DNA of 64,000 bases. Source: a virus. Of this stretch, positions 31,557 through 59,576 are shown piece after piece. The notes beneath the pieces are model-generated. The model searched no databases. It was not told the DNA's origin and saw only the letters and a program-made list of their open reading frames with translations. The translations under genes and the position numbers were made by a program. Every line of letters begins with the position of its first letter. Positions within the stretch are counted from its first letter, which is position 1. The stretch lies in the IMG/VR virus record IMGVR_UViG_3300010334_000030, positions 77,055 to 141,054 of that record. The stretch is one strand, 5' to 3'.

Positions 31557-31562
31557 TAGTAA

Positions 31563-32825: not shown

Positions 32826-32854
32826 AAAAAGGCCTATAAAGGCCTTTTCTTTTT
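32824..32854. terminator. Bidirectional intrinsic terminator
   Basis: AAAAGGCCT-ATAA-AGGCCTTTT with flanking A/T runs between convergent genes. Confidence 0.85.
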
Positions 32855-32869
32855 AATAGCATATCAATA

Positions 32870-33214
32870 TTAAAAATCTTCCAATCTTTTTAAATCCGAT
32901 GAAAATTCTAGGGATTCAGTGGTGTGCATTATGCTGGTGGTACCGAAACTAGTAGCATCTTTAAATATGCCTTGCTCATTTCTATCTATTCTTACACCAG
33001 GCACATTTATGTTTGAGGTGTTTGCAAAAACAGCATTAGCATATCCAACATGATCATATGCAGGCTCTCTTTTAATGGTAGAAAGACCTGATTTCATTAA
33101 CCCACCTTGCGATTGGTTAGAAGGTGCAAGTGGCTTGTATTTATTGTCATGTACCTTGTTCAGAAACTGATCAAAATTTAATATTTCCCTTTGGGCTACG
33201 TTTTGTAAATTCAT
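32870..33214 (-). CDS. Small putative head-internal protein
   Basis: ILNFDQF near the N-terminus and LKRLEDF at the C-terminus, both resembling the capsid-targeting motif. Confidence 0.55.
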   Translation of the reverse strand: MNLQNVAQREILNFDQFLNKVHDNKYKPLAPSNQSQGGLMKSGLSTIKREPAYDHVGYANAVFANTSNINVPGVRIDRNEQGIFKDATSFGTTSIMHTTESLEFSSDLKRLEDF

Positions 33215-33229
33215 ATTAAAAAAATTAAT

Positions 33230-33871
33230 TTATGCTGCAGCTGCTGAATTCCATATTCTTTGTAAAGCCCCCCAAATTCCATCTGAAGAACCTGAATCAC
33301 CTCTTGATGCTCCTGTTGATGGCGATACCTGGCTTGAAGTGTATGATTGTCCCAGTCTTTGGCTAAGAGCATTGGTAAGTTTTTCTTTGTCATTACTGCT
33401 TAAATTTTCAACAGCTTCTTTACCGATATGAGCGCTTCCTAATAGCTCCTCGAATGCTTTAACCATTTTATCCTGTCCTTCCTTACTTAAAAGCATATTT
33501 CTTAGAAAAGTAAAAGCTAAACCAGTTGTCTTAATCCCCATAGAAGCAGCTACGGTATCTATACCTTTTTGTTCTACGAATCTTCTTAAAGAGTCAGCAA
33601 GTTTAGGAGCCCAATAAGTTGAATTTAAATTATCCCCTGAAAGTATTTTTGGGATATCACCCATTGGAATTTCTGTTACGAAGTTCTGAACAAATGAAGA
33701 AAGTAGGGATCCTTCCATAAGACCCAATTTCTCTAAAAGAGCAGCAGTTATTTTTGTCCTGATTGTGTCTTTGAATCCAGTTCCCATTACAGAAAACAGA
33801 TTTGAGAAAAATCCACCGAAGTTGAAGTCCTCATTTATCTGAAATTCTTTTAATTTTTTAATGTTTGACAT
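33230..33871 (-). CDS. Putative head-internal/ejection protein
   Basis: Leader MSNIKKLKEFQINE followed by amphipathic DFNFGGFFSNLFS; GATATATA at 33890-33897. Confidence 0.6.
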   Translation of the reverse strand: MSNIKKLKEFQINEDFNFGGFFSNLFSVMGTGFKDTIRTKITAALLEKLGLMEGSLLSSFVQNFVTEIPMGDIPKILSGDNLNSTYWAPKLADSLRRFVEQKGIDTVAASMGIKTTGLAFTFLRNMLLSKEGQDKMVKAFEELLGSAHIGKEAVENLSSNDKEKLTNALSQRLGQSYTSSQVSPSTGASRGDSGSSDGIWGALQRIWNSAAAA

Positions 33872-33918
33872 TGAAAAAAATTTTTCTTATATATATCTAA
33901 ACAGGTTTAGGATTCCTC

Positions 33919-35328
33919 TTATTTAATAGATTCTATAAAGAGATTAACCGCTTTTTGTCTATATTTAATTCTATCCTCTTTTATTTCAGGGTTTTTAAGT
34001 GCCTCTTTTTTCCTGTTTAATATAGATTCGGGTAAAAGTGGACCAAATGTGTCCTTAAGTATTTTTTTATCTGTCCTCCATTCTATAGGTAAATGCAAGG
34101 CAAATCTAACTATTTCTAGATTCAGGAATGGATTTCTTAACTCCAGGGTATGTGCCATAGACATTTTATCAAGTCTAGGCAAGTGGTAATAGGTAAGCTC
34201 TTCAAAAATGTCAGACTGCTGGGAGTCGTATTCGTGGATTCTTGAATATCCGCCAAAGAGCTCATCAGAGCCGTCCCCGCTAATAACTATCCGATATCCT
34301 GTTTCCTTCTTAACTGCTTCAAATAAATGGTATTGCGGTATAACAGATCCTAGATCTATAGGTCCTTCGTTCCAATCACAATAAATATCTGCCAGTTTGC
34401 TAGAATCCATATTGTAGTCTAAAAAGTTAATCGGGGTCTCTAAATGCTCACTAAGTGCTTTAACATACTGGGATTCCCCATTTTCTATAGAAAACCAGGT
34501 TACCTTGGATTCAAGCTGTTTAAGAATTGCTGCTATGATCGAAGAATCTAGACCCCCAGAAACTAACACCGATATTGGATAGTTCTTAGACACCAGACGG
34601 AACTTTACGCTCTCTATCATTTTATCCCAAAGCCATTCCATATGAGCCTCGTAATCAGCTCCTATTAAGCTTTTAATTGGGGTTTCCCAAGCTCTATAAT
34701 ACTTAGGGAAAATGTGGTTAAAAAGTGGAGACGCTATATTGTAGGAATAAATGTTATTTGGTAAAAGTCTTTTAATGTTTAGATAAGGTGTTCTTTCATC
34801 CTTATTATATCCCCATTTCCTAACCGAACTAATATAGGATTGGTCAAGATCACTTTGACCTGTAAATAGACCTTTTATCTCTGAGCAAATCTCACCAAGC
34901 TCATTTTTATAAAGGCACTTCTTACCAAGAGGATCGGTAAAGGCGATAATATCACCAGTTTTAGAATTGTAGATAATTATAGCCCAAAATCCATCCCAAG
35001 TTTGAATATGAGGAATATACATAGCACTAAAGAACTCCACGCTTCCACCTCTATAACTAGAGAATAAATTACAAAGATACTCAGTATCGGATGAAAATTT
35101 AGTTTGATCATAATTAAAGATCTCACCATTAAACATCAAATATATTCCATCTGATATTTCTAGAGGCTGTGCCCATTCATCACCATCTAATGTCTGGATG
35201 GGAAGTCTATGGTGGCATAGGGTAACACCATCAAGATCAACCATTGATTTTTCTATTCCTCTATGTTCTATAGAATCTAAGAGTTCGGGCATTTCGCTGG
35301 CCCTAGTAGTTAGCAGTATTCCGCACAT
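33919..35328 (-). CDS. asnB: Asparagine synthetase B-like glutamine amidotransferase
   Basis: N-terminal MCGI (Ntn Cys), HRG, FNGEIFN, SGGLDSS PP-loop, GDGSDELFGGY, E.R.PFL. Confidence 0.92.
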   Translation of the reverse strand: MCGILLTTRASEMPELLDSIEHRGIEKSMVDLDGVTLCHHRLPIQTLDGDEWAQPLEISDGIYLMFNGEIFNYDQTKFSSDTEYLCNLFSSYRGGSVEFFSAMYIPHIQTWDGFWAIIIYNSKTGDIIAFTDPLGKKCLYKNELGEICSEIKGLFTGQSDLDQSYISSVRKWGYNKDERTPYLNIKRLLPNNIYSYNIASPLFNHIFPKYYRAWETPIKSLIGADYEAHMEWLWDKMIESVKFRLVSKNYPISVLVSGGLDSSIIAAILKQLESKVTWFSIENGESQYVKALSEHLETPINFLDYNMDSSKLADIYCDWNEGPIDLGSVIPQYHLFEAVKKETGYRIVISGDGSDELFGGYSRIHEYDSQQSDIFEELTYYHLPRLDKMSMAHTLELRNPFLNLEIVRFALHLPIEWRTDKKILKDTFGPLLPESILNRKKEALKNPEIKEDRIKYRQKAVNLFIESIK

Positions 35329-35330
35329 AA

Positions 35331-35891
35331 TTAAATGGTAAATTCTGATTCAAAAAATGATTTAAGTTCTGATACAGTTTTAGTATCGAAAGTATTTTTA
35401 AAGATCTTTAAGTTTCCAATACCTATTTCGTTAAATTTAGAAATAACAAACTCGAAAGCTTTCCTTTCTGCTGATGATTTATCGGCATAGTCCCATTGAT
35501 CTTTATTTCTATCGGATTTATTTGGATTGTCCCCATCTATATAAAGGACGGTAATTCCTGACATTAAACCTGAATTTTTAATATAAAGAATTTGTTTAGC
35601 TGCATCAGACTTTGATATTCTATTCTCAGAAATTCCCCAGGCTAAAACAGTTAGGATTCCGCGGTCGTGTATGAAGTCGGGTAGATTTATATCCTTAGCC
35701 ATTTGCATAAGCATGAGTTCTTTACCCATTGAAAACGAATGTGCCTCTCTGTTGTCCTTACTGGAAAGCCCTAAGAGATTAAAATAGCTGCCAAAATCAA
35801 ACTGGAATCTTGGGATCCCAACAAGCTTAGAGATCTCAGTAGAGAGATAGGTTTTACCAGAATTTCGAGAACCTTCAAAAACATAGATCAT
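35331..35891 (-). CDS. P-loop nucleotide monophosphate kinase (thymidylate-kinase-like)
   Basis: VFEGSRNSGKT Walker A, IHDR motif. Confidence 0.75.
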   Translation of the reverse strand: MIYVFEGSRNSGKTYLSTEISKLVGIPRFQFDFGSYFNLLGLSSKDNREAHSFSMGKELMLMQMAKDINLPDFIHDRGILTVLAWGISENRISKSDAAKQILYIKNSGLMSGITVLYIDGDNPNKSDRNKDQWDYADKSSAERKAFEFVISKFNEIGIGNLKIFKNTFDTKTVSELKSFFESEFTI

Positions 35892-35914
35892 TGGTCTTTA
35901 TTTTTTATATTCTA

Positions 35915-35922
35915 CAAATGTA
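35915..35922 (-). promoter_or_regulatory. Bacteroidota-type -7 promoter element TACATTTG
   Basis: Matches TAnnTTTG, about 24 nt upstream of the kinase start. Confidence 0.45.
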
Positions 35923-35940
35923 ATAAAATTCCACGGACAT

Positions 35941-35969
35941 AAAAAAAACCAGGATTATTCCTGGTTTTT
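35941..35969 (-). terminator. Intrinsic terminator
   Basis: AAAAACCAGGA-TTAT-TCCTGGTTTTT hairpin with A/T tails. Confidence 0.85.
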
Positions 35970-35989
35970 GTATTTTGAATATTTTTAAA

Positions 35990-36895
35990 TTAACCTAATG
36001 TTTCTGTCGTTCCCTCAATATCACCAACTTTTTCTAGTTCGTCTGCACTTGTAGTAGAAGTTTGATATGTTGCAGCCAAAGTACCAGCTATCTGCTGATT
36101 GTCTGGGCTTTCTAGAGCTTCCGCACCTCTTTTTAAAAGATCGTCCTTTACCTTCTTTGCACCCTGTTTTGCAAGATCTAATGCTTGTTTAAAAGCTTTT
36201 GATTTATTTGCTAAAGTATTTATTTTCTTAACAGATTTTAGGTTATTGAAAGCAGATTTAACTTTCTTTAGCTTGGATGTTACCTTAGCTACGTTTTTAA
36301 GAGCTTTTACTCCTTTTACTGCTTTTTGAACACCATTTAATGCTTTCAAAGCTTTAGATCCTTTACTAACGAAGCTAATGATTTTTTGAGCATACATTAA
36401 ACCTGCAGGAACGCCACAAGCAGTTAATGCAACAGAAGCAACCATCATTATAATAGGCATGGCTTTTTTAATTACCTTGACTGCTTTTTGTGCAAACTTT
36501 TTAAGACCCGCACCTAGTTTTTTCCAAAATTTTTCATTAAGTGCTAAATATCCATTAAGCTCTTCCTCACTTAAATTCTCAACAGAATCTATACCTAGAT
36601 CTTCAGCAAGATAATTTAAGAAATCCCTTTCACTGAAATCATCAAAGTGCTCCTTTAAAAATTCAGAAAGAGACATATCTTCAGGGATATCAAAATCCTC
36701 GTTCAAGTCATTCATATCAAATCCAAGCTTCTCTGCAACTAAATCTAAGTAACCCTTACCCTCTGTAAGAACCATCTCATCAATTGCACGAAGCTGTTCA
36801 ACGGTTAGGTTGTCAAGATCAAAACTCTTACATGACTCAAAAAGGGGTGATTTGTTAGATCCTTGAGAACTGCTAAATGGCAATATATTTTTCAT
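35990..36895 (-). CDS. Putative ejection protein: acidic prodomain plus cationic/hydrophobic C-terminal region (paralog 1)
   Basis: About 120 aa of D/E-rich sequence, then LNE-KFWKKLGAGLKKFAQKAVKVIKK and a hydrophobic helix. Confidence 0.6.
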   Translation of the reverse strand: MKNILPFSSSQGSNKSPLFESCKSFDLDNLTVEQLRAIDEMVLTEGKGYLDLVAEKLGFDMNDLNEDFDIPEDMSLSEFLKEHFDDFSERDFLNYLAEDLGIDSVENLSEEELNGYLALNEKFWKKLGAGLKKFAQKAVKVIKKAMPIIMMVASVALTACGVPAGLMYAQKIISFVSKGSKALKALNGVQKAVKGVKALKNVAKVTSKLKKVKSAFNNLKSVKKINTLANKSKAFKQALDLAKQGAKKVKDDLLKRGAEALESPDNQQIAGTLAATYQTSTTSADELEKVGDIEGTTETLG

Positions 36896-36930
36896 AAGTC
36901 TTTATGTTTGTTATATTCTATATTGGATAA

Positions 36931-37647
36931 TTATCCGTCATTTTCGTCGTCTTCTGGCTCAAGGTCTGCTGCATTCTCTGGTACTGTTGAAGGAGGAATC
37001 TGTTTCTTTACAGATTTAGCGGTTTCAACCGCAGCGGTAAAAGCAGGAGCTATGTTTTTAATTGTTTGCATATTATCAGCACTGAAAAGCGCTTTTGCTC
37101 CATTCTTCTTTACATCATTAAAAACTTTACCTAAACTTGCCTGAACTACATCAGCAGTCTTTCCCATTTCTGGGTTTGAATCCGATTTAGAAATCAATTT
37201 TGTTATATTAGGATATTTAGCAGCTAGTTTTCCAAGTCCACCCTGGAATTTACCAAGAAAAGCTTTAAGTTTTGGACTAGCATCAGCGGGAATCACTTTT
37301 GATATAATAGGACCAGCTATACTTTTCACCTTAGCTACTACTTCTTTTGCTTTATTAAAAGCTTTTTTCAACCAACCTTTCTCGTTAATATTGTACTCAT
37401 CAGATTCGTCTAACATTTCAAAATCAAATTCATAGTCATCAGATATACCCTCTCTCATACAGATAAGGTCAAATGTACAAATTCCGTGATTTTCTGCCAA
37501 TCTATCAAGATCTGCCAATTCCTGCTCGTTTAGGGAATTGAAGTCTAAATGACTAACGCTTTCTAAAAGCTCGGATTCATCTATTTTATAATATCCTGAG
37601 ATTTCTTTTTCTGAACCGTAGTTCTCAAATGCAACGATGTTTTTCAT
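36931..37647 (-). CDS. Putative ejection protein (paralog 2)
   Basis: Acidic prodomain, then INE-KGWLKKAFNKAKEVVAKVKSIAGP. Confidence 0.6.
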   Translation of the reverse strand: MKNIVAFENYGSEKEISGYYKIDESELLESVSHLDFNSLNEQELADLDRLAENHGICTFDLICMREGISDDYEFDFEMLDESDEYNINEKGWLKKAFNKAKEVVAKVKSIAGPIISKVIPADASPKLKAFLGKFQGGLGKLAAKYPNITKLISKSDSNPEMGKTADVVQASLGKVFNDVKKNGAKALFSADNMQTIKNIAPAFTAAVETAKSVKKQIPPSTVPENAADLEPEDDENDG

Positions 37648-37669
37648 TTTTCTATTTTTATTTTTTTAT

Positions 37670-38398
37670 TTAGGCTGTCGGAATGTCACTAGATGACCAT
37701 GGCTTTGGATCAGTTACGGCCTTAGGTACATTATTCTTTTCACCGTTCTTATTTCCTGTTTCTTTTATATTAAAAACCACCTCTTTTATAGCGGTTTGAA
37801 TGATACCTATGCCCATACTAGAGCGTTTGTTGTCTTCGCTAAAAAGAGAACTTTGTGCTCTAGATTCATTATCTTTTAAAACCTTACCGTAAGTATTCAC
37901 CAAAACATTAACGACATATTTATGCTCCGGAGTTTTATTTGCAATATCGTAAAGTTCTTCCGAAGATTTAGGTCCTTTTGCAAGGGCTTTCTTTAAACCT
38001 TTTATGTACATATCAACAACTTTATTTATTGTTTGTAATGTCTTTGGTGGCATCGGTTCTTTTTTCTTGTCACCATCTATACTTAGACCATCTATTGCTT
38101 TTTTTACATCAGGCTTGATTTTGTTAATTTGTTCATTAACTGTTTTTACTAGCCAACCTGGTGCTGATGATTCATATATTTCATAATCAGAAGAAAAGTT
38201 TTCCGGCTCGTTCATACAAACAACATCAAGTGTGCAAAGATCTGAGGATTCAACCAACATATCTAATTGGTAGAAATCATCCTCGTTTATTTTTTCATAC
38301 CCTCCATTAGACTCGTTTAAATTAAAAGACTTCTTTAGTATTTTCTGCACAGTATTAAAAACTGCATAGTTGTTAAAGGAAAAAAGATTACTGTTCAT
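37670..38398 (-). CDS. Putative ejection protein (paralog 3)
   Basis: Shares LD.L.E...CT.D..CM.E with paralog 2; GATATATA at 38416-38423. Confidence 0.55.
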   Translation of the reverse strand: MNSNLFSFNNYAVFNTVQKILKKSFNLNESNGGYEKINEDDFYQLDMLVESSDLCTLDVVCMNEPENFSSDYEIYESSAPGWLVKTVNEQINKIKPDVKKAIDGLSIDGDKKKEPMPPKTLQTINKVVDMYIKGLKKALAKGPKSSEELYDIANKTPEHKYVVNVLVNTYGKVLKDNESRAQSSLFSEDNKRSSMGIGIIQTAIKEVVFNIKETGNKNGEKNNVPKAVTDPKPWSSSDIPTA

Positions 38399-38425
38399 AG
38401 TTTAATTTATATTTGTATATATCAT

Positions 38426-40897
38426 TTATAGGCTATCCGAATTTACACATTTAAAAGGGGAGAACTGAGGAACATCCTCAAAGGAAGTTGAATTCATTCT
38501 TTTAACATGTGCCGCAATTGAAGGATAAAGATCTGAAGCTATATAATATAGTGTTTTTCCTAATATCTCTTTAACCCCTGAATTTTCTGGAGACTTTTTA
38601 GATGGCAGTTTAATAAGGGATAAAAATCCAGATAGTGACTTAGAAGGATCTTTAGACTCTTCTGTGCTCAGCTTATCTATAAGAGAATTACGATCGGATA
38701 CCACTATTTTAGCACCTTCAAAACCAAGTAAAAATATATCTCCTGAATCAACATCGCTTAAAGATGAATCTATGCTATCCTTAACTAATCTGTTACAGGT
38801 TGATTCACCCATAATATTATCATGGATCCACTTTATGCAGCTTACGAATTTATCACCATCAAAAGTTATACAATTCGAAAGCATAACCAAGAGATTATTT
38901 AGCATAGAGAAGTCCTTATCGTCTAAATCTGGAGATTTCTCATCAGACTGAAGAACAGATTTAATTGACTGTGCAATTGCTCCTTTTAATAAGTTATAGC
39001 TTATAAAAGGGATTGTACTGTTTTCAACGGAAGCAGAATAAACAGTTTGATATGCCTTAGAACCTTTTAGAGATTCTCCCGCTTTTTTGTTAAATTCTTT
39101 TATACCAGAGTATCTCCATTCAGGTCTAATTAAACCAAATGTTCTCCACCCGTTCATATAGTTTGTAATGAAGTCCAAGCAATCCTCATCATCTAAAGTT
39201 GTTAGCTTTCTAGACTCTGCCCATTTTTTCCAGTTGCAAGGTGTCTTTATTGAAGACGTTGATATGTTGATATTATAAACACCACCTGAAGTGTAGAAAT
39301 AAGAAAACTCACCCTCAGGTACTGCTCCATCTACAGCTTTGCTCCAAGCAGCAATAAAATCAGGGGTATATGAAGATTTGAGACTTCCATCACCCTTAAT
39401 AAAATCGTCACTTTCTATTTTTAGACTGTATTTTCTTCTAAGCTTCTTTGCTAAAGAATCAACACCTGTAGTTTTTGTACTATCAGATTCAGTGTCTTCC
39501 AATTGGGATACCTGAACACCAGCTCCTGCAATTGATTTATATTGGCTGTCTAATTCTTTTTCGAACTCTGAGTTGTTGATAAATATTTTCTCCTCGTTCA
39601 ATCTAGAATATCTTCTACCGTATGATCTTGATTCGTTTACTGGAGATTTAATCTTATCTACAGCATCTCTTATTGCTAATTTATCCTTGTTTGAAATCCA
39701 ATCAGAAGAAAGAAAAGAATCTAATAGACTTTTATCTATTTCACCGTTTGTGTTTTTGTTACCAGCCATTTTTTGGATGGTCATAACAACTGCATGCGTA
39801 GATGGACCAAATTTACCATTAAGTCCCTTTTTAGATTTAATCAATCTTGCAGCTGAAGGTATTCCGTTGCATAATGCAGTTTGTATAGCAAAAATTAAAC
39901 CACTATCTTTGAATCTAGGATCAGTGTCTGAATCTCCTCTCTTTATAGGAAAAAGAGATTTGCTGATCTCATTTTCTCTAGCTTCGTGTCCGTCTTTTAT
40001 ATCTTTTATTGCAATAGAATATTGAGTTTGAGCTCTTGTTAGGTTATCTAATGCCTGACGATTTAAATCTGCAACATCAACATAAGAAGAGTAAACTTCT
40101 TCCTCGCCTTCCAAGTTCTGTAAAGCTTTATTTGAAGCATTTACCAAGGATTTATTAAATTCATCTTGGAACTTTTCAACTTGTTTTTCTAAATCCTCTA
40201 ATATTTTTTTATTTTTCTCACCTCCACCTTTATAATCCAATGACTGCCTTCTTTGGTCTAATTCAATAAATGTTCTTTTCCAGTCTCTAGCATAGCCTCT
40301 ACTTGAATCCTTACCCTCAGATGATGTTATCAGATTAGCTAAAATCTTTTTTAGATTTTTAACTCTCCCCGAATATCCTATAAAGATAGATTCATTAAGG
40401 GATTCTGCTTCTGCCCTTAACATCTTTTCTTCTTCCTCCTCTGCTTGCTGTGCAATAGAATCCAAGGTGTTTTGAATTTTCATTGGATCTATTTTAAACT
40501 TCTTAAGAATAAATGAATCAGTTTTTCCTTTACCTATTTCAGAAGCTCTATTTAAAGCATCTAAGAATTTGCTTAGACTTTCTATATACAGTCTTTTAAC
40601 CTCTGCAAATCTAGAATCACTCACGTCCGCATCGTTAGAATAATCTAATAGCTTTCCAGTTAATGATTTTACGGTTTTAGATTTTGCTAAATCTGAAAGC
40701 TTATCCCTCATTACATCGGGATTTCTATCTCTCTTTTTAGCTAAATCAAAATTTAAAATCTTAAAAATGTTCAGTGCCTGATCACATATTTTAGAAAGTA
40801 CAGGTTCAACTTTCTCGTTCTCAAAAAGATTCTCATTATAAAATCCTAAAATACTCTTCGCAACTGGATTGTAAATATACGGGTTTTTATTCATCAT
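38426..40897 (-). CDS. Large putative virion-internal protein with a peptidoglycan-binding-like domain
   Basis: IKRGD...IQ.AL...NGKFGPST..VV..IQ...NGEID resembles PG_binding_1; coiled-coil N-terminal half; several LNE/VNE sites. Confidence 0.6.
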   Translation of the reverse strand: MMNKNPYIYNPVAKSILGFYNENLFENEKVEPVLSKICDQALNIFKILNFDLAKKRDRNPDVMRDKLSDLAKSKTVKSLTGKLLDYSNDADVSDSRFAEVKRLYIESLSKFLDALNRASEIGKGKTDSFILKKFKIDPMKIQNTLDSIAQQAEEEEEKMLRAEAESLNESIFIGYSGRVKNLKKILANLITSSEGKDSSRGYARDWKRTFIELDQRRQSLDYKGGGEKNKKILEDLEKQVEKFQDEFNKSLVNASNKALQNLEGEEEVYSSYVDVADLNRQALDNLTRAQTQYSIAIKDIKDGHEARENEISKSLFPIKRGDSDTDPRFKDSGLIFAIQTALCNGIPSAARLIKSKKGLNGKFGPSTHAVVMTIQKMAGNKNTNGEIDKSLLDSFLSSDWISNKDKLAIRDAVDKIKSPVNESRSYGRRYSRLNEEKIFINNSEFEKELDSQYKSIAGAGVQVSQLEDTESDSTKTTGVDSLAKKLRRKYSLKIESDDFIKGDGSLKSSYTPDFIAAWSKAVDGAVPEGEFSYFYTSGGVYNINISTSSIKTPCNWKKWAESRKLTTLDDEDCLDFITNYMNGWRTFGLIRPEWRYSGIKEFNKKAGESLKGSKAYQTVYSASVENSTIPFISYNLLKGAIAQSIKSVLQSDEKSPDLDDKDFSMLNNLLVMLSNCITFDGDKFVSCIKWIHDNIMGESTCNRLVKDSIDSSLSDVDSGDIFLLGFEGAKIVVSDRNSLIDKLSTEESKDPSKSLSGFLSLIKLPSKKSPENSGVKEILGKTLYYIASDLYPSIAAHVKRMNSTSFEDVPQFSPFKCVNSDSL

Positions 40898-40908
40898 ATC
40901 TTAGTTTT

Positions 40909-41181
40909 TTAATATCTAGGAGTAGTTCCAGGAGTTCCTCCCGGCGTGGTGTTTTTTAATTTTAATGCATCTGTAAGGGATTTCATTAAATTCGGAATCT
41001 TTGCATATAATTCAGACTGTTTAGTTAAACTAGTGATCTCACTATTAACATCACCAGCTTTTTTCAGTTTTTTAGCATCACTTATAGCATCAAAAGTTTC
41101 AGAAATTTGTGTTCTGATTCTTTCAATTTTAGTGTGCGTGCTATCAGCTTCGTTTACTACAAATTGGTCAAAGTTAAGCAT
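40909..41181 (-). CDS. Small putative head-internal protein
   Basis: Leader MLNFDQFVVNE closely resembles the T4 CTS. Confidence 0.6.
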   Translation of the reverse strand: MLNFDQFVVNEADSTHTKIERIRTQISETFDAISDAKKLKKAGDVNSEITSLTKQSELYAKIPNLMKSLTDALKLKNTTPGGTPGTTPRY

Positions 41182-42085
41182 ATCTTTTAGCTATTGTTAT
41201 TTTAGATCTAAGATCTCTGATCTCAGACATGTATTTTTCTCTAATTTCTTTTATCCTTTTGGCGGCATAATTTCTTTTAGCGACATCGTCAGGATTCTTA
41301 TCAATCTCAGTGTTTAGAAGATCTCTTTCCATATCTAGAGCGACATATTTATCATCTCTTTCATTAATAAGAAAAGAAACTAACTTCTTAGCAACGTCGC
41401 GAGGGAATCCCTTTACGGCTTCTGCAAATTCAACCACAGATAGTTTAGTTAGCATTTCAAATCTAACATCAGGGGTTCCTATTTCGTCAAAATCCATAGG
41501 AACTCTAGAAATCCTAGGGGATCTTTCCGGTGATCTCATTGATAAGAAATCTCCATATTCTTCTTTGAACTCTTTGTCCTTCTCTCTTGATTGGACTATT
41601 GCCCTTTTGTATTTAGAATATAAATCTTTCGATAAATCCTCATCAGCCAGCATCTTAGCTCTTCTGTACATCTCCTCAGAAACTTCTGAATCTATTCTTG
41701 ATTTATTTACTTCCCAGTAATCTTGAAGCCTTTTATTCTCACCTATAATTCTTTTAACCTTTAAAAAAATCTCGTCAGTTTTAGCCTTATGAGCTTTAGT
41801 TGCTGCAGGTAATATAGATTGATTACGATCTATCATACGCTCAATCCTTTTTATCTCTGCAGGATCACTCGAAGTTTGTCCTCTCTGTAATGAAAGTTTA
41901 TCTATTTCAGTTTTAACTTCGTCCCACTCGTCAACATATCTTAATTCAGCAGTTTTATATTCGCCTAATAATGTATCAATCTTTTGAATATGACCTCCGA
42001 AAGCTGAGCTTATCCAATTCTTCAGACGATCCGTCATTGATGACTCGTTTAATGCACTCCAATCTTTAAATTTCAACAAAGACAT
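41174..42085 (-). CDS. Coiled-coil putative head-internal protein
   Basis: Leader MSLLKFKDWSALNE; apparent paralog of 42085-43227. Confidence 0.6.
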   Translation of the reverse strand: MSLLKFKDWSALNESSMTDRLKNWISSAFGGHIQKIDTLLGEYKTAELRYVDEWDEVKTEIDKLSLQRGQTSSDPAEIKRIERMIDRNQSILPAATKAHKAKTDEIFLKVKRIIGENKRLQDYWEVNKSRIDSEVSEEMYRRAKMLADEDLSKDLYSKYKRAIVQSREKDKEFKEEYGDFLSMRSPERSPRISRVPMDFDEIGTPDVRFEMLTKLSVVEFAEAVKGFPRDVAKKLVSFLINERDDKYVALDMERDLLNTEIDKNPDDVAKRNYAAKRIKEIREKYMSEIRDLRSKITIAKRYA

Positions 42086-43227
42086 TATTTAGTTATTTTT
42101 TTGATTGCATTTTTAAGCTTGTCTACTTCAACTTCTCCAGTTCCGTCCTTTAGGTTCTTAGCAAACAGGGAAGTTATAATTTTTTTAGTTCCAGTATTAG
42201 CATCTTGTCCGTCTATTACTGAGTAGTTGATCATATCTATAATATTAGAAAATCCACTACCAGATAGCTTAGATTTTATTTCATCAGGATTACTACCTAA
42301 AGATTTAAAAGCACTCAAAAGATTAGTTTTAGAATCTAAAGTTGAAGCTAATTCAAGAAGTTGAATTTTTGTATTATTAACAAATCCAACCGATGCTTTT
42401 CCTTTAGAGCTTAACTTCTTTTCTAGAGCTTTTAGTACAGTTTCCATCTCTGACTTTATATCTATTATCTCTTTAGCTAGCTCATTTTTTCTCTTTATAA
42501 GATCAGATGATTTCTTAGAAGATATTTTCTTTTTCTCCTCTTGCGCATCAACCCTTTCGACAGGTTTTATATTTTTTTCTTCCTCTGCACTATCTTCAAT
42601 ATCATCTTCAAGCTCTTTAATCTTCTCTGCAGCTTCACGTTTAGCTTTTAGTATTTTCTCCTCGTATTTTTTATTCTCCGAAGAGCTTGATCTTTCCTTA
42701 GCTATTTTGTATTCATTTTTAGCTATAGCTATTTCATCCTCCGCGCGTCCTGCTTCGTAATACTCCTTTCTTCTAGGACTGTTTGCAACCAGCTTAGAAA
42801 TATGTTCTAAACATTTTTTAATCTTCAATTTTTGAGATTTTAAATAGGTTTCTAGCTCTTTAATTTTGGAATCCCGGTCTTTTGTTAGCGCTAACATTTT
42901 TTGTCTATCGTTAGATCTTGACAGTAAACTTATCTGGTCCTGAATATCATCAATCTCATTTTCAAGATTTGCTCTTTGTTCAATCACATCTATTTCAAGA
43001 TCAACTAGTATTTTTCTAGTATCATCGATCATCCCAGTTCTAGATAAAGGACCTAAAAAAAACTTGGAAGCTGAATTTTTAATTCTATCCATTAAAGCAC
43101 CTTCGTTTACGGTGTAATAAGGGTCTGCTCTTTCAAGTTCAGAAAACCCCCTTATTAAATCGGAATCAACAGATTCTAAAAGTGAATCATATTTTTTGAA
43201 TTCGTTAAATGATGGAATATTTTTCAT
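42085..43227 (-). CDS. Coiled-coil putative head-internal protein
   Basis: Leader MKNIPSFNEF..LLE; GATATATA at 43256-43263. Confidence 0.6.
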   Translation of the reverse strand: MKNIPSFNEFKKYDSLLESVDSDLIRGFSELERADPYYTVNEGALMDRIKNSASKFFLGPLSRTGMIDDTRKILVDLEIDVIEQRANLENEIDDIQDQISLLSRSNDRQKMLALTKDRDSKIKELETYLKSQKLKIKKCLEHISKLVANSPRRKEYYEAGRAEDEIAIAKNEYKIAKERSSSSENKKYEEKILKAKREAAEKIKELEDDIEDSAEEEKNIKPVERVDAQEEKKKISSKKSSDLIKRKNELAKEIIDIKSEMETVLKALEKKLSSKGKASVGFVNNTKIQLLELASTLDSKTNLLSAFKSLGSNPDEIKSKLSGSGFSNIIDMINYSVIDGQDANTGTKKIITSLFAKNLKDGTGEVEVDKLKNAIKKITK

Positions 43228-43366: not shown

Positions 43367-45145
43367 TTAAACTATACCACCTGATGGGATGTTTACGAAG
43401 AATGTAATATACATTGTTTCAGGTAAGAAACCAGCTTCAACTAGAGCGTATCTAGATTTAACTGCGATCTTAGGAGACATTGTACCTTCAGAGATAGTCT
43501 GAATTGATTCAGCCATCATGTAAGGCATAAACTTAAGACCTGGTTCGTCATCACCACCTTTTCTACCAACTAGGATTCTAGTATCGGCGTAGTTCATGTT
43601 CTGATCTACGTAAACAGTCATACCAGCAAGAGAACCTACAGGGTATAATGTACCGTTATTTTGAGTCAAAGTGTTAGAGAATGGAGCGAATGTGAACTGG
43701 CTAATGTCTTGCAAAGCAGAAGCGATTTGAGAGTTAGTAACGATGAAGTTAGCAGGTCCTCTTCTACCTCTGTTAGCAACTACGTTAGCAGCAGCAAGGA
43801 TTCTAGAGAATAATCTTCTTTGTAAAGTTGATTGGTTCTCAAAGTTGTTAGTCGCGATTTGACCAGGAACTGCTAAGGTAACACCAGAGTCATCTTTACC
43901 TACGTAAGCAGCTGTGTTAGCAGCAGCTGAAGTAGACAAGTTCAAGTTCAAGTTTTGTCCATCAACGTTGTTGAATTGTACGTGGTTTGACCAACCTAAA
44001 GCGAATGCTCTAGAAAGGATGTGCTTGTTAATAGCTTGAGAAACCTCGTTAACAAGAGCGTTTTCAATCATTGAAATCACATCGATACCGAATTGCTTAT
44101 TCAAATCTTGGATTTGCTCAGTTGTAACAGAAGCAGCAACTTGGAAAGTCTCAGCTTCTACGAACTTAGTGAAAGTAGAAAGACCCATTGAGTTGTAGTA
44201 TGTAGATTCTCCAACCGCTCTTAACATTGGGTTGTAAGTCTTAGTACCATCAACATATGGTCCTTGTAAAGCATTGTCATTGTTGAAACCAGCACCAGAG
44301 AAACCTTGGATATGATCTTCAAGAGCTTTAACCAATGAAGCTGTACTTGCAACAGTTGCAGTTGCAAGAGGAGCAGTAAGTGAAGCAGCAGCAGTTGCAG
44401 CAGCAGTAGCGCTATAAGGAGAAGCTACAACTTTAATGTAAGCAGCAGTTGTAGTTTGAACTATACTAGCAACGTTATATCCATTAGTAATGTCCAAGAT
44501 ACTGAAGATTGGACTTCCGTCTATTCTTGAAAGACCAACAAATGCAGCACTAATGTATGCAGAAGCTGTACCAATTACGTAAGTGATACTGCTTGAGTTT
44601 GCAGCAGAAGGAATGCTAAATGTTCCTGATGTAGCACCTACAGTACCAGTAGCGCCGTAAGCAGCAAATTTAATCATTGCAGGAGCATCAGCTAAATCTG
44701 CACCAGCAGAAGCTGAAGTAGCACCAGAGATTTTACCACCAGCATATACGTAGTCTAAGTAAGACAAGATACCAGTAGGACCAGACATTGGGATAACAGG
44801 AACGATATCAAAACCAACAGTCTTCGCAGCTACTTGAATAGCTAAAGGAAGTAATGAAGGGAATTTATCGCCTGAACCTTGATATCCAGTGTTGTAGAAG
44901 TTAGCATTAGCACTCGTACCAAAAGTAGTGTTACCGTAGCTAGCACCTGGGAATAAAGGAGCTTGTACAGCACCCATACCGTTTACTACACCTAAAGTGT
45001 TGTAAGCACCAGCAGATTCGTTTAATGAATGGTAGTGACAATATTTAGTCAGCCATCCTTTTTTGCTTTCATCTGTAATACCTGCTTTGCTCTCGATTAG
45101 AGGCGCCCAAGTACTATAGATTTCTTGTTCGTTAATCAATTTCAT
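43367..45145 (-). CDS. Major capsid protein (T4 gp23-like)
   Basis: DIVPV.PMSGPTG, T.EQIQDL..Q.G.D, RRG.ANF, FMPY, P.I..KSRYAL; follows the protease gene and ends at a strong terminator. Confidence 0.92.
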   Translation of the reverse strand: MKLINEQEIYSTWAPLIESKAGITDESKKGWLTKYCHYHSLNESAGAYNTLGVVNGMGAVQAPLFPGASYGNTTFGTSANANFYNTGYQGSGDKFPSLLPLAIQVAAKTVGFDIVPVIPMSGPTGILSYLDYVYAGGKISGATSASAGADLADAPAMIKFAAYGATGTVGATSGTFSIPSAANSSSITYVIGTASAYISAAFVGLSRIDGSPIFSILDITNGYNVASIVQTTTAAYIKVVASPYSATAAATAAASLTAPLATATVASTASLVKALEDHIQGFSGAGFNNDNALQGPYVDGTKTYNPMLRAVGESTYYNSMGLSTFTKFVEAETFQVAASVTTEQIQDLNKQFGIDVISMIENALVNEVSQAINKHILSRAFALGWSNHVQFNNVDGQNLNLNLSTSAAANTAAYVGKDDSGVTLAVPGQIATNNFENQSTLQRRLFSRILAAANVVANRGRRGPANFIVTNSQIASALQDISQFTFAPFSNTLTQNNGTLYPVGSLAGMTVYVDQNMNYADTRILVGRKGGDDEPGLKFMPYMMAESIQTISEGTMSPKIAVKSRYALVEAGFLPETMYITFFVNIPSGGIV

Positions 45146-45169: not shown

Positions 45170-47164
45170 TTATCTGTTTGTAAACTTTTTCTCTAAAGCA
45201 GAAGCTATGTAACTCATATAATCTGATGAGTAAGCTTGAGCTGCTTGAGATTGGTTGTTTGAAACCTCTTCGCTTTCTTGAAGCTTCTGAAGACCTACTG
45301 GGCTAGTTCCAAGTTGACGTGTTGACCAGAAATTTTTGATCTGGTATGGGGTATCTAATCTATAGAAGTTAGACTGAGCAACAATTGATTGCTTGTGTCC
45401 TTCTGATAGTGATTCCCAAACCTGAGCATACTCTTCAGGCATTTCATCAATAAATTTGAAACCTGTTTCATGTAAGTTCTCCTCTGATTCATTAAGCATT
45501 TGTTCTGCCTTTTGTTTGTTGGCGTTTTTAGCTAATCTATTAGCTGCTTCGTTTATATTCTCCTCAGTTTTTTTGGTTTGAACTGATTCAATTAGAGAGT
45601 CGATTTTTGATGAGATATCATCGTAGCTTCCTGCAAATCCAGATTCGTTAAGATCTGATTCAACTGTAAATTCTACGCTTTCTCTTAAGTTAGTTTGGTT
45701 GCTGTAAGGATTTCCCTTCTGTACTGATTCTGCAATATACTCACTGTAAGAAATTGATCTACTAAGTTTTTCTGCTAAGTACTCAGAATAATCTATGCCC
45801 TTATTTAGATTTTCTGCTAAATAGTCAGTATATTCAATACCTCTGTTTAGATTTTCTGCAACATACTCAGTATATTCAATGCCGTCATTTAATTTTTCGG
45901 CTAGGTACTCAGTATAAGCAACACCTTTATTTAGATTTTCTCCAAGATACTCAGAATAAGAAATGTTATTATCAACATTCTCAGCTAAGTACTCAGAATA
46001 TTGGATGTTTTGATCCAACTTCTCAGCTAAATACTTAGAGTACTCGATATTATTATCTACGCTTTCTGCAACATATTCTGTGTAAGAGATTGACTTATCA
46101 ACGTTCTCAGCTAAATACTTAGAATATGAAATTGACTTGTCAACGTTCTCAGCTAGGTATCTAGAATATGAAATTGACTTATCCAAATTCTCAGCTAAAT
46201 ATTTGCTATAAGTGATGCTATTGTCAAGATTCTCTGACAAATATTCGCCATACTTAATAGCGTTTTCTAAATTTTCAGCTAGGTAATCTGAATATTTTTC
46301 AAGTTTAGCAACTCTTTCTTCCAATTCGTAAGAATCGTTAGTGGGTTGTTTTTGTTCTTTTAAGTCTGCAATGACTGACTTCATAGAATCCATTTCTTTT
46401 TTCAAGAAAACTGAATACTTATTTAGCTCGTCTGCGGTAACAAATTCATTGTTCTCCATAAGGGCTTTCTTATTTTTATTATCCGTTTTGTTTATGATAT
46501 TGTAAAATTCCTCATTATCAACTTTATATATCTTTAATGAAGATTCATTTTCTAGACCTAGAGATTCATTTATACACTCAAGATCATTAGTTATGCTATT
46601 AGACTGGAAACTCTTAAATTCCTCTGAGCTAAACCCTGCGCTCTCGTACACTCTATCAAGCTGTGCATTTTGAAATCCAGGATCAGCAACTAGGTCATAT
46701 GTGAAAATCTTTTTAATTTGAACCTTTTTGTCGTTACCAACTGAACCTGCTGCTCTAGACGATATAGATAAAGGAATACCTGCATCCACAATTTTTTTTG
46801 CTACTTCTCCTGCTGGGGTATCTAAAAGTTTAACTTTAATTCTTAAAGTTTTGTCACCCTTATTATGAATTAAATCTGTAACAAGGTGAGAAATATTTTT
46901 AAGAGAAACATCAAATTTTTCAGGATGATCCAATTCACCAACTAATCTTTTTTGATCTATCTTCTCTTTTAAATACTCAAGATGGGGAAGATACTCTTTT
47001 TCCTCGTATATTCTGTGGTTGTTGTTTTCTTTACCAAAAACCGCTGCAATACCCTCTAAAAGATATTCATTATCAGAAGACTTCTTTGACTCGAGAACAA
47101 AATCCTGCTTATCCAGGATAAACACCATTTGCTCAGTTAATAAATTATCTTTCAATCTCGGCAT
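45170..47164 (-). CDS. Prohead protease (gp21-like) fused to a scaffold/core domain
   Basis: N.N.RIY, GELDHP, NISH, LLDTPAG, ISSRAAGSV, TYDLVADPGF; C-terminal 14-aa repeats; GATATATA at 47191-47198. Confidence 0.92.
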   Translation of the reverse strand: MPRLKDNLLTEQMVFILDKQDFVLESKKSSDNEYLLEGIAAVFGKENNNHRIYEEKEYLPHLEYLKEKIDQKRLVGELDHPEKFDVSLKNISHLVTDLIHNKGDKTLRIKVKLLDTPAGEVAKKIVDAGIPLSISSRAAGSVGNDKKVQIKKIFTYDLVADPGFQNAQLDRVYESAGFSSEEFKSFQSNSITNDLECINESLGLENESSLKIYKVDNEEFYNIINKTDNKNKKALMENNEFVTADELNKYSVFLKKEMDSMKSVIADLKEQKQPTNDSYELEERVAKLEKYSDYLAENLENAIKYGEYLSENLDNSITYSKYLAENLDKSISYSRYLAENVDKSISYSKYLAENVDKSISYTEYVAESVDNNIEYSKYLAEKLDQNIQYSEYLAENVDNNISYSEYLGENLNKGVAYTEYLAEKLNDGIEYTEYVAENLNRGIEYTDYLAENLNKGIDYSEYLAEKLSRSISYSEYIAESVQKGNPYSNQTNLRESVEFTVESDLNESGFAGSYDDISSKIDSLIESVQTKKTEENINEAANRLAKNANKQKAEQMLNESEENLHETGFKFIDEMPEEYAQVWESLSEGHKQSIVAQSNFYRLDTPYQIKNFWSTRQLGTSPVGLQKLQESEEVSNNQSQAAQAYSSDYMSYIASALEKKFTNR
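45728..46295 (-). repeat. 14 x 42-bp (14-aa) coding repeat, consensus YSEYLAENLDKSIS
   Basis: 14 Y-x-x-Y-[LVI]-[ASG]-E units counted in the translation. Confidence 0.95.
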
Positions 47165-47225
47165 ATTATTAAGAATTTTTCTCTATTTATTATATATCAA
47201 TCGTTGATTTGATTTTTCTGATATT

Positions 47226-57947: not shown

Positions 57948-59576
57948 TTATATTGCACCCGCATCCATAGAGGCTAGATCATCTCCGCCTTCTGCGCCTT
58001 CCCCTGCAGCTTCAGCTTGTTTAGCAATCTTCTCAGCTTCTTTCTCGTCTTTCTTTTTATATTTTTCATTAAGTCTAATAAGATCAGGGTTAAGACCTAA
58101 GAATCTTTCGATCAAAAATCCATTATCGAAATAAGGAACCTCTGCCTCACCCATTTTAGTTTTAAGCTCTCCTAACCCAGTAATAAATTCAGTTCTTTTC
58201 TGGTATGTAGCCATCTGAACCTGCTCGTTAAAAGGATTATCCCTATGATATTTCAATCCTAAATTTGTTTTAAAACTTTTATCTTTAGCAAGTTCAGGAT
58301 ACTTTAAACACATTTGTATATACAACGGCTTAACTAATATCTCCTGAAAAATTGATCTTAATCTAGTTAAGAATTTTTCAAATCTAATTTCATCTCTTTC
58401 TAGCCCATCTATACTTACAGAATAGTTAACAGGGGTTGCACCTCTAGAAGCAAATCTAGCATAAGGAATCTTAGAATCCATCTTGAGTTTGTTAAAGAAA
58501 TAGAGAACGTTTTCCATAACGTTAAAATCAGGACCCGATGCATTTAAAGATTCGATAGTTGGAGATTGACCATTCTGTTCAGGAAAAAGATAGTTTTTGT
58601 AAAATTGGATTTTAGGTTTTCCGTTAACTGTCATTTCTCCAGAATTCTCATTAATTGAAATATCCTCCTTATAGTTATTCATTAATTGACCAAGGGTTTG
58701 CATTGCCTTCTGTGGAGATTGACTTCCGGTAGGTATAATGAATTTAAGTCTAAATGAGGCGTTCATAACATTCCAGATAACTCTAGAGTTTTCCATTATT
58801 CTTAGAATATTATAGGATCTCACTAATCTTTCAAGATAGCTTATTCTAGAAATCGAATTACCCTTAGCATAAGAGATGTAAATAATCTGCTCATTTGTAA
58901 GTTTCCTAGTCATCTGTGGGTTTTTTGGATATTGAATCCAAAACTGTTTATATTCACTTTCACTTATCTTCTCCACAGCAGGTTGGAGTGATGTTGGATC
59001 TAATTCTTTAAACCCTATAATCTCCTTACCCTGGTTATCGTAAATTATCTCAAAAGCAAGAAATCCATCCACTAGAAACTGCTTGAAAAATTGCCAAGCA
59101 AGTATAGTGTTTTGGAATCCAAAAACGTTATAAAGTCTATTATAATTATTTGTAATCTCATCTCTCATCTTATCTTTTAGACCATCGAGATTTGCAAAAG
59201 ACGGCGAGGCAAAGAAATTACGCTCGGTATAACTTATACACTCATCAGTTACCGTGTCAAGAATAAATTCAATTTCTCCATTCAAAGAAAACTTTCTTAG
59301 AAAATTTCTTTTCTCAAGATAGTCCTTATCATAATAAGCAATATATTTTCTAACCCTAGTATCTTGATAGGATAAAGTCCAATAAAAAGCATCATTCTCA
59401 GTAAATCCAGTTCCAGATTGATTAAAGAAGGCAGATTCGGTTTTACCAACGGCTTGTGAATTTCTCACCACCATATCATCATACTCCATTCCCAGCTTTG
59501 AGATCTTTCCGAGATTTCGAATAATGTTTCCTAGAGCCGATTGACTCGGTTTAAATCCGTCTAAAAATCCTGCCAT
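57948..59576 (-). CDS. Portal protein (T4 gp20-like), paralog B
   Basis: FLVDG, SYLERL.R.YN.LR.ME...VIW, YF..KL.....IP..R, RDEIRF.KF..RLR..F. Confidence 0.9.
   Translation of the reverse strand: MAGFLDGFKPSQSALGNIIRNLGKISKLGMEYDDMVVRNSQAVGKTESAFFNQSGTGFTENDAFYWTLSYQDTRVRKYIAYYDKDYLEKRNFLRKFSLNGEIEFILDTVTDECISYTERNFFASPSFANLDGLKDKMRDEITNNYNRLYNVFGFQNTILAWQFFKQFLVDGFLAFEIIYDNQGKEIIGFKELDPTSLQPAVEKISESEYKQFWIQYPKNPQMTRKLTNEQIIYISYAKGNSISRISYLERLVRSYNILRIMENSRVIWNVMNASFRLKFIIPTGSQSPQKAMQTLGQLMNNYKEDISINENSGEMTVNGKPKIQFYKNYLFPEQNGQSPTIESLNASGPDFNVMENVLYFFNKLKMDSKIPYARFASRGATPVNYSVSIDGLERDEIRFEKFLTRLRSIFQEILVKPLYIQMCLKYPELAKDKSFKTNLGLKYHRDNPFNEQVQMATYQKRTEFITGLGELKTKMGEAEVPYFDNGFLIERFLGLNPDLIRLNEKYKKKDEKEAEKIAKQAEAAGEGAEGGDDLASMDAGAI

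What the first reader, a model, noticed from the sequence alone, without database searches (positions are those of the whole stretch)
45728..46295. Scaffold fused to the prohead protease is a 14-fold array of a CTS-like / cleavage motif
Seen: 14 units of Y-x-x-Y-[LVI]-[ASG]-E at a strict 14-aa (double-heptad) period. The last unit, SYSEYIAE, is nearly the T4 CTS core TYQEFIAE. Inference: each unit is both a coiled-coil register and a self-cleavage site, and cargo leaders may co-assemble with the core by mimicking it. Repeat number could scale with head size.
Basis: partly seen in the sequence, partly recalled or inferred. Interest (0 to 1): 0.7.

Follow-up and report, generated by a model that had tools for sequence, protein, structure and literature searches.

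The report
Capsid scaffold built from 14 targeting-like repeats
An uncultured giant phage fuses its T4-type head protease to a scaffold made of 14 repeats, each resembling the tag-plus-cut-site that phage T4 uses to load proteins into its head, which gives a testable idea of how that tag works.

Summary
The ORF at window 45170-47164 (minus strand, 664 aa) carries an S77/gp21-type prohead protease. It is followed by exactly 14 in-register 14-residue units with the motif Y-x-x-Y-[LVI]-[ASG]-E (aa 291-479, window 45728-46294).

The array is not chance and not recent slippage. Unit DNA is only 62% identical, yet the array is kept in thousands of metagenomic relatives (343-735 kb phages, kin of the Mahaphage and Lak groups).

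- **Cleavage motif:** family-wide, the unit's Glu is its best-kept residue and Asp rarely replaces it, with L/I/V two residues before. That is the T4 gp21 site.
- **Targeting resemblance:** the two invariant aromatics match T4 CTS residues 4 and 7.
- **Leaders:** the same aromatic core is enriched at protein N-termini in this genome and in a complete relative.
- **Untested:** binding and cleavage themselves.
- **Size scaling:** copy number does not track genome size.

One addition: a promoter-like octamer inside the ORF, invariant in 58 of 58 relatives, sits 70-76 nt before a conserved in-frame Met236. This implies a nested scaffold-only gene, as in lambda and herpesviruses.

First-stage notes e1-5912759 and e1-5912758 had already flagged this stretch on the same DNA, read in another window. 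I rate it a new variant of a known kind.

The parts
45170..47164 (-). Full-length ORF (664 aa): prohead protease fused to scaffold
   Evidence: ORF list. Pfam PF03420 and phrog_207 on the N-terminal part. More than 4279 homologues of the scaffold part at E <= 1e-5.
47191..47198 (-). Promoter-like octamer GATATATA, 34 nt before the ORF's ATG
   Evidence: The octamer is 26-fold enriched upstream of ORFs in the 141 kb genome and usually lies 25-37 nt before a start codon.
46643..47164 (-). S77 (T4 gp21-like) protease domain, aa 1-174, ending at a conserved V-Y-E|S-A-G site
   Evidence: hhalign to T4 gp21 gives 91% probability. His80 and Ser135/136 align with T4 His85 and Ser140 and are invariant in 40 relatives. 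The site after the domain is conserved family-wide as R-V-N-E-S-x-G.
46525..46532 (-). Internal promoter-like octamer GATATATA embedded in codons for K-I-Y-K (aa 211-214)
   Evidence: It is the only copy of the octamer deep inside an ORF on this strand. It is invariant in 58 of 58 distinct relatives while the flanking residues change in ways that keep the bases. Of 17 invariant Ile and 32 invariant Tyr columns, only these two keep a single codon in 34 of 34 sequences.
45170..46459 (-). Inferred nested scaffold-only gene, Met236 to stop (429 aa)
   Evidence: Met236 is in frame and conserved in all relatives, including Mahaphage and Lak records. It lies 70-76 nt after the internal octamer. The 30 nt before it are 57% A, the 96th percentile within the CDS, against a mean of 49% before real gene starts.
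45710..46297 (-). Array of 14 units of 14 aa (aa 290-485); motif-to-motif span 45728-46294
   Evidence: AF2 predicts helix for aa 278-396 and 403-483 at low confidence. The strongest hydrophobic harmonic is 3.5 residues on the Kyte-Doolittle scale.
45314..45466 (-). Conserved small helical C-terminal domain (aa 567-617) with an invariant F-W pair
   Evidence: AF2 pLDDT is 85-96 with a 37-row alignment. The domain is conserved in Mahaphage, Lak and Tenacibaculum phage pT24 proteins. No solved fold matched it.
43367..45145 (-). gp23-type major capsid protein, 24 nt downstream, with no octamer of its own
   Evidence: Pfam PF07068 E 1.6e-38 and matches to T4 gp23 chains. The N-terminal 43 aa end in an invariant L-N-E|S-A-G. 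The nearest upstream octamer on this strand is the internal one at 46532.
43102..43227 (-). Leader (aa 1-42) of the 380 aa protein next to the capsid gene: aromatic-x-x-aromatic at residues 7-10, invariant Glu42
   Evidence: In an alignment of 31 orthologues the leader varies, F10 is nearly invariant, E42 is invariant, and the conserved mature part starts right after it.

Best explanation
This is the assembly core gene of a giant T4-related phage.

Shown by sequence comparison:
- An S77 protease domain is fused in frame to an alpha-helical scaffold.
- The scaffold's centre is 14 diverged but strictly in-register 14-residue units.
- A conserved promoter-like octamer and a conserved Met236 lie inside the ORF.

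Inferred mechanism:
1. The gene makes two products: a minor full-length protease-scaffold, and a major scaffold-only protein starting at Met236. The internal promoter would also feed the capsid gene just downstream.
2. The array forms a helical rod. The small and aliphatic residues (columns 3, 7, 10, 14) make a heptad seam, and the two Tyr plus Leu form a second face used for core-core contacts.
3. Each unit ends in [LIV]-[AGS]-Glu, the site type cut by T4 gp21. After the shell closes, the protease would dice the rod into 14-residue acidic peptides that can leave the head.
4. Head proteins of this phage carry one N-terminal copy of the same aromatic core followed by a [LIV]-x-Glu site, as T4 internal proteins carry the CTS. 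They would join the core by packing against the repeats and be released by the same cut.
For: **Identity and context.** establish the protease; the capsid gene follows directly.

**Selection on the array.**
- Units are 55% identical in protein but 62% in DNA, and only 45% of identical residues share a codon.
- 115 close relatives have 12-15 units, always 14 residues apart.
- 626 clusters at 50% identity match the scaffold part.

**Cleavage motif.**
- In leave-one-column-out calls over 147 representatives (about 1300 units), Glu at column 8 is the best-kept residue (77%). Asp is not among its six commonest substitutes.
- Other acidic columns mix E/D/N freely. Column 6 is L/I/V in 94% of units and column 7 is A/G/S in 82%.
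- T4 gp21 cuts after L/I-x-E, and Asp at that position blocks processing (PMC9026906).
- The phage's own presumptive sites share the motif: after the protease domain, at the capsid propeptide, and at the invariant Glu42 of a leader.

**CTS likeness.**
- In T4, CTS residues 4 and 7 (both aromatic) target and residues 8 and 10 process. Internal proteins co-purify with gp22.
- The unit has the same layout.

**Leaders.**
- The repeat-core motif, allowing F or Y, occurs in the first 16 residues of 9 of 501 proteins of a complete 373 kb relative, against 6 of 5553 internal windows (p 5e-7).
- In this genome the figures are 2 of 130 against 4 of 2403 (p 0.03).
- A motif fixed beforehand gave 20 of 502 against 15 of 1439 (p 7e-5).

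**Nested gene.**
Against: - No protein, RNA or structural data exist for this phage, and no cultured relative carries the array.
- The residue after the cut would be Asn or Lys in most units. The phage's other presumptive sites, and the T4 sites examined here (CTS, gp22 N-terminus, gp23, gp24), have Ser, Gly or Ala there.
- 23% of units family-wide lack the Glu.
- The 462 kb relative keeps the 14-residue period with only 2 canonical motifs. Periodicity therefore survives without the cut site.
- The AF2 model of the array has low confidence, about pLDDT 40.
- When Tyr is counted as apolar, the 3.5-residue harmonic no longer stands out.
- Leaders mostly use Phe, not Tyr, and their cut site lies 5-30 residues after the aromatic core rather than directly after it.
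- A position matrix built from the units did not pick out N-termini in this genome.
- The exact internal octamer is absent from the five Mahaphage records (four have a one-base variant) and from the two Lak records examined (Lak-B5, Lak-A1).
Confidence: 0.55

Rival explanations
1. The array is only a structural helical spacer or rod. The L-A-E triplet is kept for helix packing and salt bridges, and the protease cuts the scaffold only at the non-repeat sites flanking the array.
For: - The period persists in the 462 kb relative, where most units have lost the motif.
- Glu8 could pair with Lys12, one helical turn away.
- The residue after the Glu differs from that at the phage's other presumptive sites.
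Against: - Glu8 is the most conserved column, and Asp is not among its six commonest substitutes (each 2% or more). Other acidic columns interchange E/D/N freely.
- Columns 6 and 7 fit the protease motif as well.
- T4 gp22 is itself cut into many fragments.
Confidence: 0.2
2. The repeats are multivalent docking sites for the capsid protein or portal, not for cargo leaders. The resemblance of leaders and the T4 CTS to the unit reflects only the shared protease motif.
For: - Scaffolds generally bind coat proteins.
- The matrix of whole units did not find leaders.
- Leaders separate the aromatic core from the cut site.
Against: - The enriched N-terminal motif is the aromatic core alone, without the cut site.
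- In T4 the aromatic residues, not the cut-site residues, do the targeting.
- A separate, well-folded and more widely conserved C-terminal domain is a better candidate for shell or portal contact.
Confidence: 0.15
3. The number of units acts as a ruler that sets head size and scales with genome size.
For: Total length after the protease domain rises from 476-497 aa (343-462 kb genomes) to 547-557 aa (635-642 kb) and 650 aa (735 kb). Spearman is 0.53 with p 0.09 and is confounded by clade.
Against: - Unit count is 13 across 343-435 kb, 11-13 at 635-642 kb and 13-15 at 735 kb.
- The 540 kb Lak phages have none.
- Spearman for count against size is -0.09 to -0.55.
Confidence: 0.05
4. The array is a neutral product of recent replication slippage with no specific function.
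For: Tandem repeats do arise this way, and Tandem Repeats Finder detects the array.
Against: - DNA copies are only 62% identical with scrambled synonymous codons.
- The array is kept in register across relatives down to below 50% identity.
Confidence: 0.02

Closest known systems
Phage T4 prohead core: gp21 protease, gp22 scaffold and the capsid targeting sequence (CTS) of IPII/IPIII
   Same: - Same protease family (S77), with the gene order protease, scaffold, gp23-type capsid protein.
- The scaffold is rich in L/I-x-E sites: T4 gp22 has 16 in 269 aa.
- The unit has the same layout as the 10-residue CTS: two aromatics three residues apart, then [LI]-x-E.
- T4 gp22 itself starts with a CTS-like peptide and has one internal W-L-A-E-N stretch.
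   Different: - Protease and scaffold are separate genes in T4.
- gp22 is not periodic, and no sequence homology to it was found (hhalign probability 0.6%).
- Here the CTS-like element is internal and repeated 14 times within the scaffold itself.
Nested protease-scaffold genes: lambda C/Nu3 and herpesvirus UL26/UL26.5
   Same: The scaffold is the C-terminal part of the protease ORF and is also made alone from an internal start. In herpesviruses it comes from its own, more abundant transcript (PMC11565193). The lambda case rests on my own knowledge.
   Different: - The protease families differ.
- Here the nested product is inferred only from a conserved embedded promoter-like octamer, a conserved Met and an A-rich leader.
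- Those scaffolds are not built of repeats.
Protease-scaffold fusions of Lak megaphages and Tenacibaculum phage pT24
   Same: Homologous protease domain, the same cut site after it, and the same C-terminal F-W domain.
   Different: The middle region is an acidic low-complexity linker (Lak) or a non-periodic helical region (pT24) instead of the 14-residue array.
Giant phage phiKZ/SPN3US head maturation (gp175-type protease, many propeptide-bearing head proteins)
   Same: Distant gp21 homologues that cut after Glu in a short motif and process many internal head proteins (PMC9026906).
   Different: The reviews read here do not describe a fused or repeat-built scaffold for them, and the capsid protein lineage differs.

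Membership tests
Peptidase S77 (T4 gp21-type prohead protease) | Sequence match to the family model above its curated cut-off | tested here: met
   PF03420 scores 30.1 bits against a cut-off of 27. phrog_207 gives E 2.5e-37. hhalign to T4 gp21 gives 91% probability.
Peptidase S77 (T4 gp21-type prohead protease) | Catalytic His and Ser in the conserved motifs | tested here: met
   His80 and Ser135/136 align with T4 His85 and Ser140 and are invariant in 40 relatives.
Peptidase S77 (T4 gp21-type prohead protease) | Cleavage after Glu in L/I-x-E | not testable with these tools
   Only motif conservation is available: capsid propeptide, post-protease site, leader Glu42 and unit Glu8.
T4 gp22 scaffold family | Sequence homology to gp22 | tested here: not met
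   hhalign of the 40-row alignment against T4 gp22 gives probability 0.6%. Position in the gene order and the many L/I-x-E sites are shared.
T4-type capsid targeting sequence | Two aromatic residues three apart followed directly by [LI]-x-E | tested here: met
   All 14 units have this layout. The T4 residue roles come from PMC9026906.
T4-type capsid targeting sequence | Located at the extreme N-terminus of a packaged protein and removed by the protease | tested here: not met
   The units are internal to the scaffold (aa 290-485). N-terminal copies of the aromatic core do occur on other proteins of the phage.
T4-type capsid targeting sequence | Sufficient to target a foreign protein into the head | not testable with these tools
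   This needs a cultured host-phage pair or an in vitro core assembly system.
Nested protease/scaffold gene (lambda C/Nu3, herpes UL26/UL26.5 type) | In-frame internal start giving a scaffold-only product that shares the C-terminus | tested here: inconclusive
   There is a conserved Met236, an embedded octamer invariant in 58 of 58 relatives with a codon-level control, and an A-rich leader.
Coiled coil | Heptad periodicity of apolar residues in a helix | tested here: inconclusive
   The period of 14 equals two heptads, and the strongest Kyte-Doolittle harmonic is 3.5 residues. AF2 predicts helix at low confidence. With Tyr counted as apolar the signal is not distinctive. The oligomeric state is unknown.

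The most novel reading that the evidence does not exclude
The capsid targeting sequence of T4-like phages is a detached scaffold repeat. The core assembles through homotypic packing of aromatic-x-x-aromatic helical units. Any protein carrying one such unit at its N-terminus is co-polymerised into the core and later freed by the same protease cut that dissolves the scaffold. In this clade the scaffold displays the principle in pure form, as a 14-unit concatemer. That would explain the long-unexplained mechanism of the T4 CTS and offer a programmable multi-site docking rod for loading cargo into phage heads.
Probability: 0.3. Interest if true: 0.8.

Novelty: new variant of a known kind. Interest (0 to 1): 0.6.

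Why it matters
How the 10-residue T4 CTS brings proteins into the prohead core has never been explained structurally. It is known only that its two aromatic residues target, and that internal proteins co-purify with gp22.

A scaffold that is literally a concatemer of CTS-like units, together with a matching leader class on about 20 proteins of a complete relative, turns this into a concrete and testable model: the leader acts as a scaffold-unit mimic.

The finding also shows three further things:
- How giant phages (343-735 kb) may solve protease-to-scaffold stoichiometry, by embedding a promoter in coding sequence.
- That scaffold repeat number is held nearly constant rather than tuned to genome size.
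- A natural design for a self-removing, multi-site cargo-loading rod that could be of use in phage engineering.

Tried and rejected
- **Complex prediction.** Two copies of the repeat region plus the 45-residue leader of the neighbouring gene gave no verdict (score 0.00, controls not run). This is neither for nor against binding.
- **AF2, whole protein.** Mean pLDDT was 46.7. It is usable only as a weak helix prediction.
- **Solved structures.** A sequence search with the whole protein found no match.
- **C-terminal domain.** Foldseek against PDB gave 0 matches and VIA-align wide gave best Z 3.7, only generic helices. No fold was assigned.
- **T4 gp22.** hhalign against it showed no homology.
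- **Unit matrix on N-termini.** A matrix of the unit core scanned over the N-termini of 130 ORFs of this genome showed no enrichment. The Tyr-only form of the core also finds none. Enrichment appears only when Phe is allowed.
- **Loose aromatic motif.** A loose aromatic-x-x-aromatic test in this genome was not significant (p 0.11).
- **Internal octamer in distant kin.** The exact octamer is absent from the five Mahaphage records (four have a one-base variant) and from the two Lak records examined (Lak-B5, Lak-A1).
- **Cultured relatives.** pT24 has the fusion without the array, and PAU has separate genes. No cultured system with the array was found among the 50,697 phage records searched.
- **False positive.** One representative hit (P0187, 2318 aa) carries a different 14-residue repeat and was discarded.
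- **Literature.** A search for the unit as a text string found nothing relevant.

Full report
**What is there**

Window 45170-47164 (minus strand) is one 664 aa ORF.
- Its first ~175-250 residues (Pfam aa 34-146; PHROG aa 5-247) are an S77 prohead protease. Pfam PF03420 scores 30.1 bits against a cut-off of 27, and phrog_207 gives E 2.5e-37.
- hhalign to T4 gp21 gives 91% probability. His80 and Ser135/136 sit on T4 His85 and Ser140.
- The next gene, 24 nt downstream, is a gp23-type major capsid protein (PF07068, E 1.6e-38).
- The window belongs to a 141 kb viral contig rated about half complete.

**The repeat**

- The motif Y-x-x-Y-[LVI]-[ASG]-E occurs 14 times at aa 291-479, with every spacing exactly 14 residues.
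- Shuffled sequences give at most 2 matches in 10,000 trials.
- Y2, Y5 and E8 are invariant across the 14 units. L6, A7 and I14 are nearly so.
- The copies are old. They are 62% identical in DNA, and only 45% of identical residues share a codon. This is not recent slippage.

**Relatives**

- The best matches among 50,697 phage records are six uncultured huge-phage records of 462-735 kb and the Prevotella Lak megaphages.
- The scaffold part has more than 4279 homologues in metagenomes and matches 626 clusters at 50% identity.
- In 115 full-length close relatives the strict motif occurs 12-15 times, always 14 residues apart. Distant members keep 2 to about 18 recognisable units.
- Complete relatives with terminal repeats are 373-435 kb.
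- The two Lak records examined (Lak-B5, Lak-A1) keep the protease and the C-terminal domain but have an acidic linker instead of the array. Cultured Tenacibaculum phage pT24 has a fusion without the array, and Sphingomonas phage PAU has separate genes.

**Is each unit a cut site?**

T4 gp21 cuts after Glu in L/I-x-E and chops gp22 into many pieces. In the CTS, Asp in place of that Glu blocks processing (PMC9026906).

I called units with one column masked at a time in 147 representatives, giving about 1300 units.
- Column 8 is Glu in 77%, the best-kept position. Asp is not among its six commonest replacements.
- The other acidic columns mix E, D and N freely.
- Column 6 is L/I/V in 94% of units and column 7 is A/G/S in 82%.
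- The same motif marks the phage's other likely processing sites: directly after the protease domain, at an invariant site 43 residues into the capsid protein, and at the invariant Glu42 of a neighbouring protein's leader.

Against this reading:
- The residue following the Glu is Asn or Lys in the units, but Ser or Gly at those other sites.
- 23% of units lack the Glu.
- The 462 kb relative keeps the period with only 2 canonical motifs.

I consider cleavage at most units likely but unproven.

**CTS likeness**

The T4 CTS was confirmed from PMC8442874 and in the T4 record, where two genes begin with it. In T4, residues 4 and 7 (both aromatic) target and residues 8 and 10 process. Internal proteins co-purify with gp22. 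The unit has exactly this layout. T4 gp22 itself begins with a CTS-like peptide, although no overall homology to gp22 was detected.

**Leaders**

- Genes downstream of the capsid gene begin with short leaders. In 31 orthologues of the first one, the leader is variable but keeps aromatics at residues 7 and 10 and an invariant Glu42, after which the conserved mature protein starts.
- A motif fixed on this genome was tested on a complete 373 kb relative. It matched 20 of 502 N-termini against 15 of 1439 internal windows (p 7e-5).
- The repeat's own aromatic core, allowing Phe or Tyr, matched 9 of 501 N-termini against 6 of 5553 internal windows (p 5e-7). In this genome the figures are 2 of 130 against 4 of 2403 (p 0.03).
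- A leader class sharing the unit's core therefore exists. Whether it binds the repeats is untested.

**Nested gene**

- The octamer GATATATA is 26-fold enriched upstream of ORFs and typically lies 25-37 nt before start codons, including 34 nt before this ORF.
- One copy lies inside the ORF at 46532, 73 nt before in-frame Met236.
- In 58 of 58 distinct relatives the eight bases are unchanged. The residue before Ile-Tyr varies among K, M, R and Q, all with codons ending in G. The residue after varies among K, R, N and S, all with codons starting in A.
- Of 17 invariant Ile and 32 invariant Tyr columns, only these two use a single codon in all 34 sequences compared.
- The 30 nt before Met236 are 57% A, similar to real gene starts.
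- The capsid gene has no octamer of its own, so the internal one would also drive it.
- This points to a scaffold-only product of 429 aa, as in herpesvirus UL26/UL26.5 (PMC11565193) and lambda C/Nu3 (my own knowledge).
- The exact octamer is missing from the Mahaphage and Lak records.

**Structure**

- AF2 predicts long helices over the array at low confidence.
- The strongest Kyte-Doolittle harmonic is 3.5 residues. With Tyr counted as apolar it is not distinctive.
- Columns 3, 7, 10 and 14 fall on a 4-3-4-3 seam, with the Tyr and Leu residues beside it. This is read directly from the sequence and the angles.
- The C-terminal domain (aa 567-617) folds confidently.

**Head size**

Across eleven complete genomes, unit count does not rise with genome size. 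Total length after the protease domain may do so, with Spearman 0.53 and p 0.09, confounded by clade.

**Verdict**

This is a real, conserved, selected feature. It is a new variant of the known protease-scaffold module, with a well-grounded but untested link to the T4 CTS.

Noticed in passing
window 57948-59576 and 59586-61280 (minus strand): Two adjacent, diverged portal-like genes (phrog_213, E 5e-64 and 4e-60). Another agent of this scan has already followed this up (e1-5912772).
   Followed up: no
whole 141 kb genome, e.g. window 47198, 43263, 38423, 33897, 32031, 14189: GATATATA is a genome-wide promoter-like motif, 26-fold enriched upstream of ORFs and usually 25-37 nt before the ATG of structural genes. 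A related N-ATATATA core precedes the protease and capsid genes of the five Mahaphage records.
   Followed up: partly
window 30612-43227 (minus strand), and the G003 relative (L090-L108): A family of N-terminal leaders has an aromatic-[STN]-[ED]-aromatic core within the first 16 residues, followed by [LIV]-x-E and a small residue. About 20 proteins in the 373 kb relative carry it, scattered over the genome. One of them (G003 287360-288181) is almost identical in layout to the T4 CTS.
   Followed up: partly
window 61313-61921 (minus strand): A 202 aa protein just upstream of the portal genes starts with a 10-residue peptide sharing 5 of 10 residues and the same length with the T4 CTS. It was the top hit of the unit-core matrix among N-termini, but one such hit is expected by chance among 130 ORFs.
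   Followed up: no
L001-L005, L019, L027, L028, L034, L036, L037: Total length after the protease domain rises with genome size: 476-497 aa at 343-462 kb, 547-557 aa at 635-642 kb, and 650 aa at 735 kb. That is roughly in step with the cube root of genome size, although unit number does not change. The sample is small and confounded by clade, and Lak phages break the trend.
   Followed up: partly
window 45314-45466 (aa 567-617 of the ORF): A small, confidently folded helical domain with an invariant F-W pair is conserved from this clade to Mahaphage, Lak and pT24. No solved fold matched it. It is a candidate shell- or portal-binding end of the scaffold.
   Followed up: partly
window 45768-46201: The array has two sub-families. 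Units 1-8 have Ala/Ser/Asn (mostly Ser/Asn) at column 13 and units 9-12 have Gly. The AF2 model breaks the helix between them, at aa 397-402, which may hint at a hairpin.
   Followed up: no
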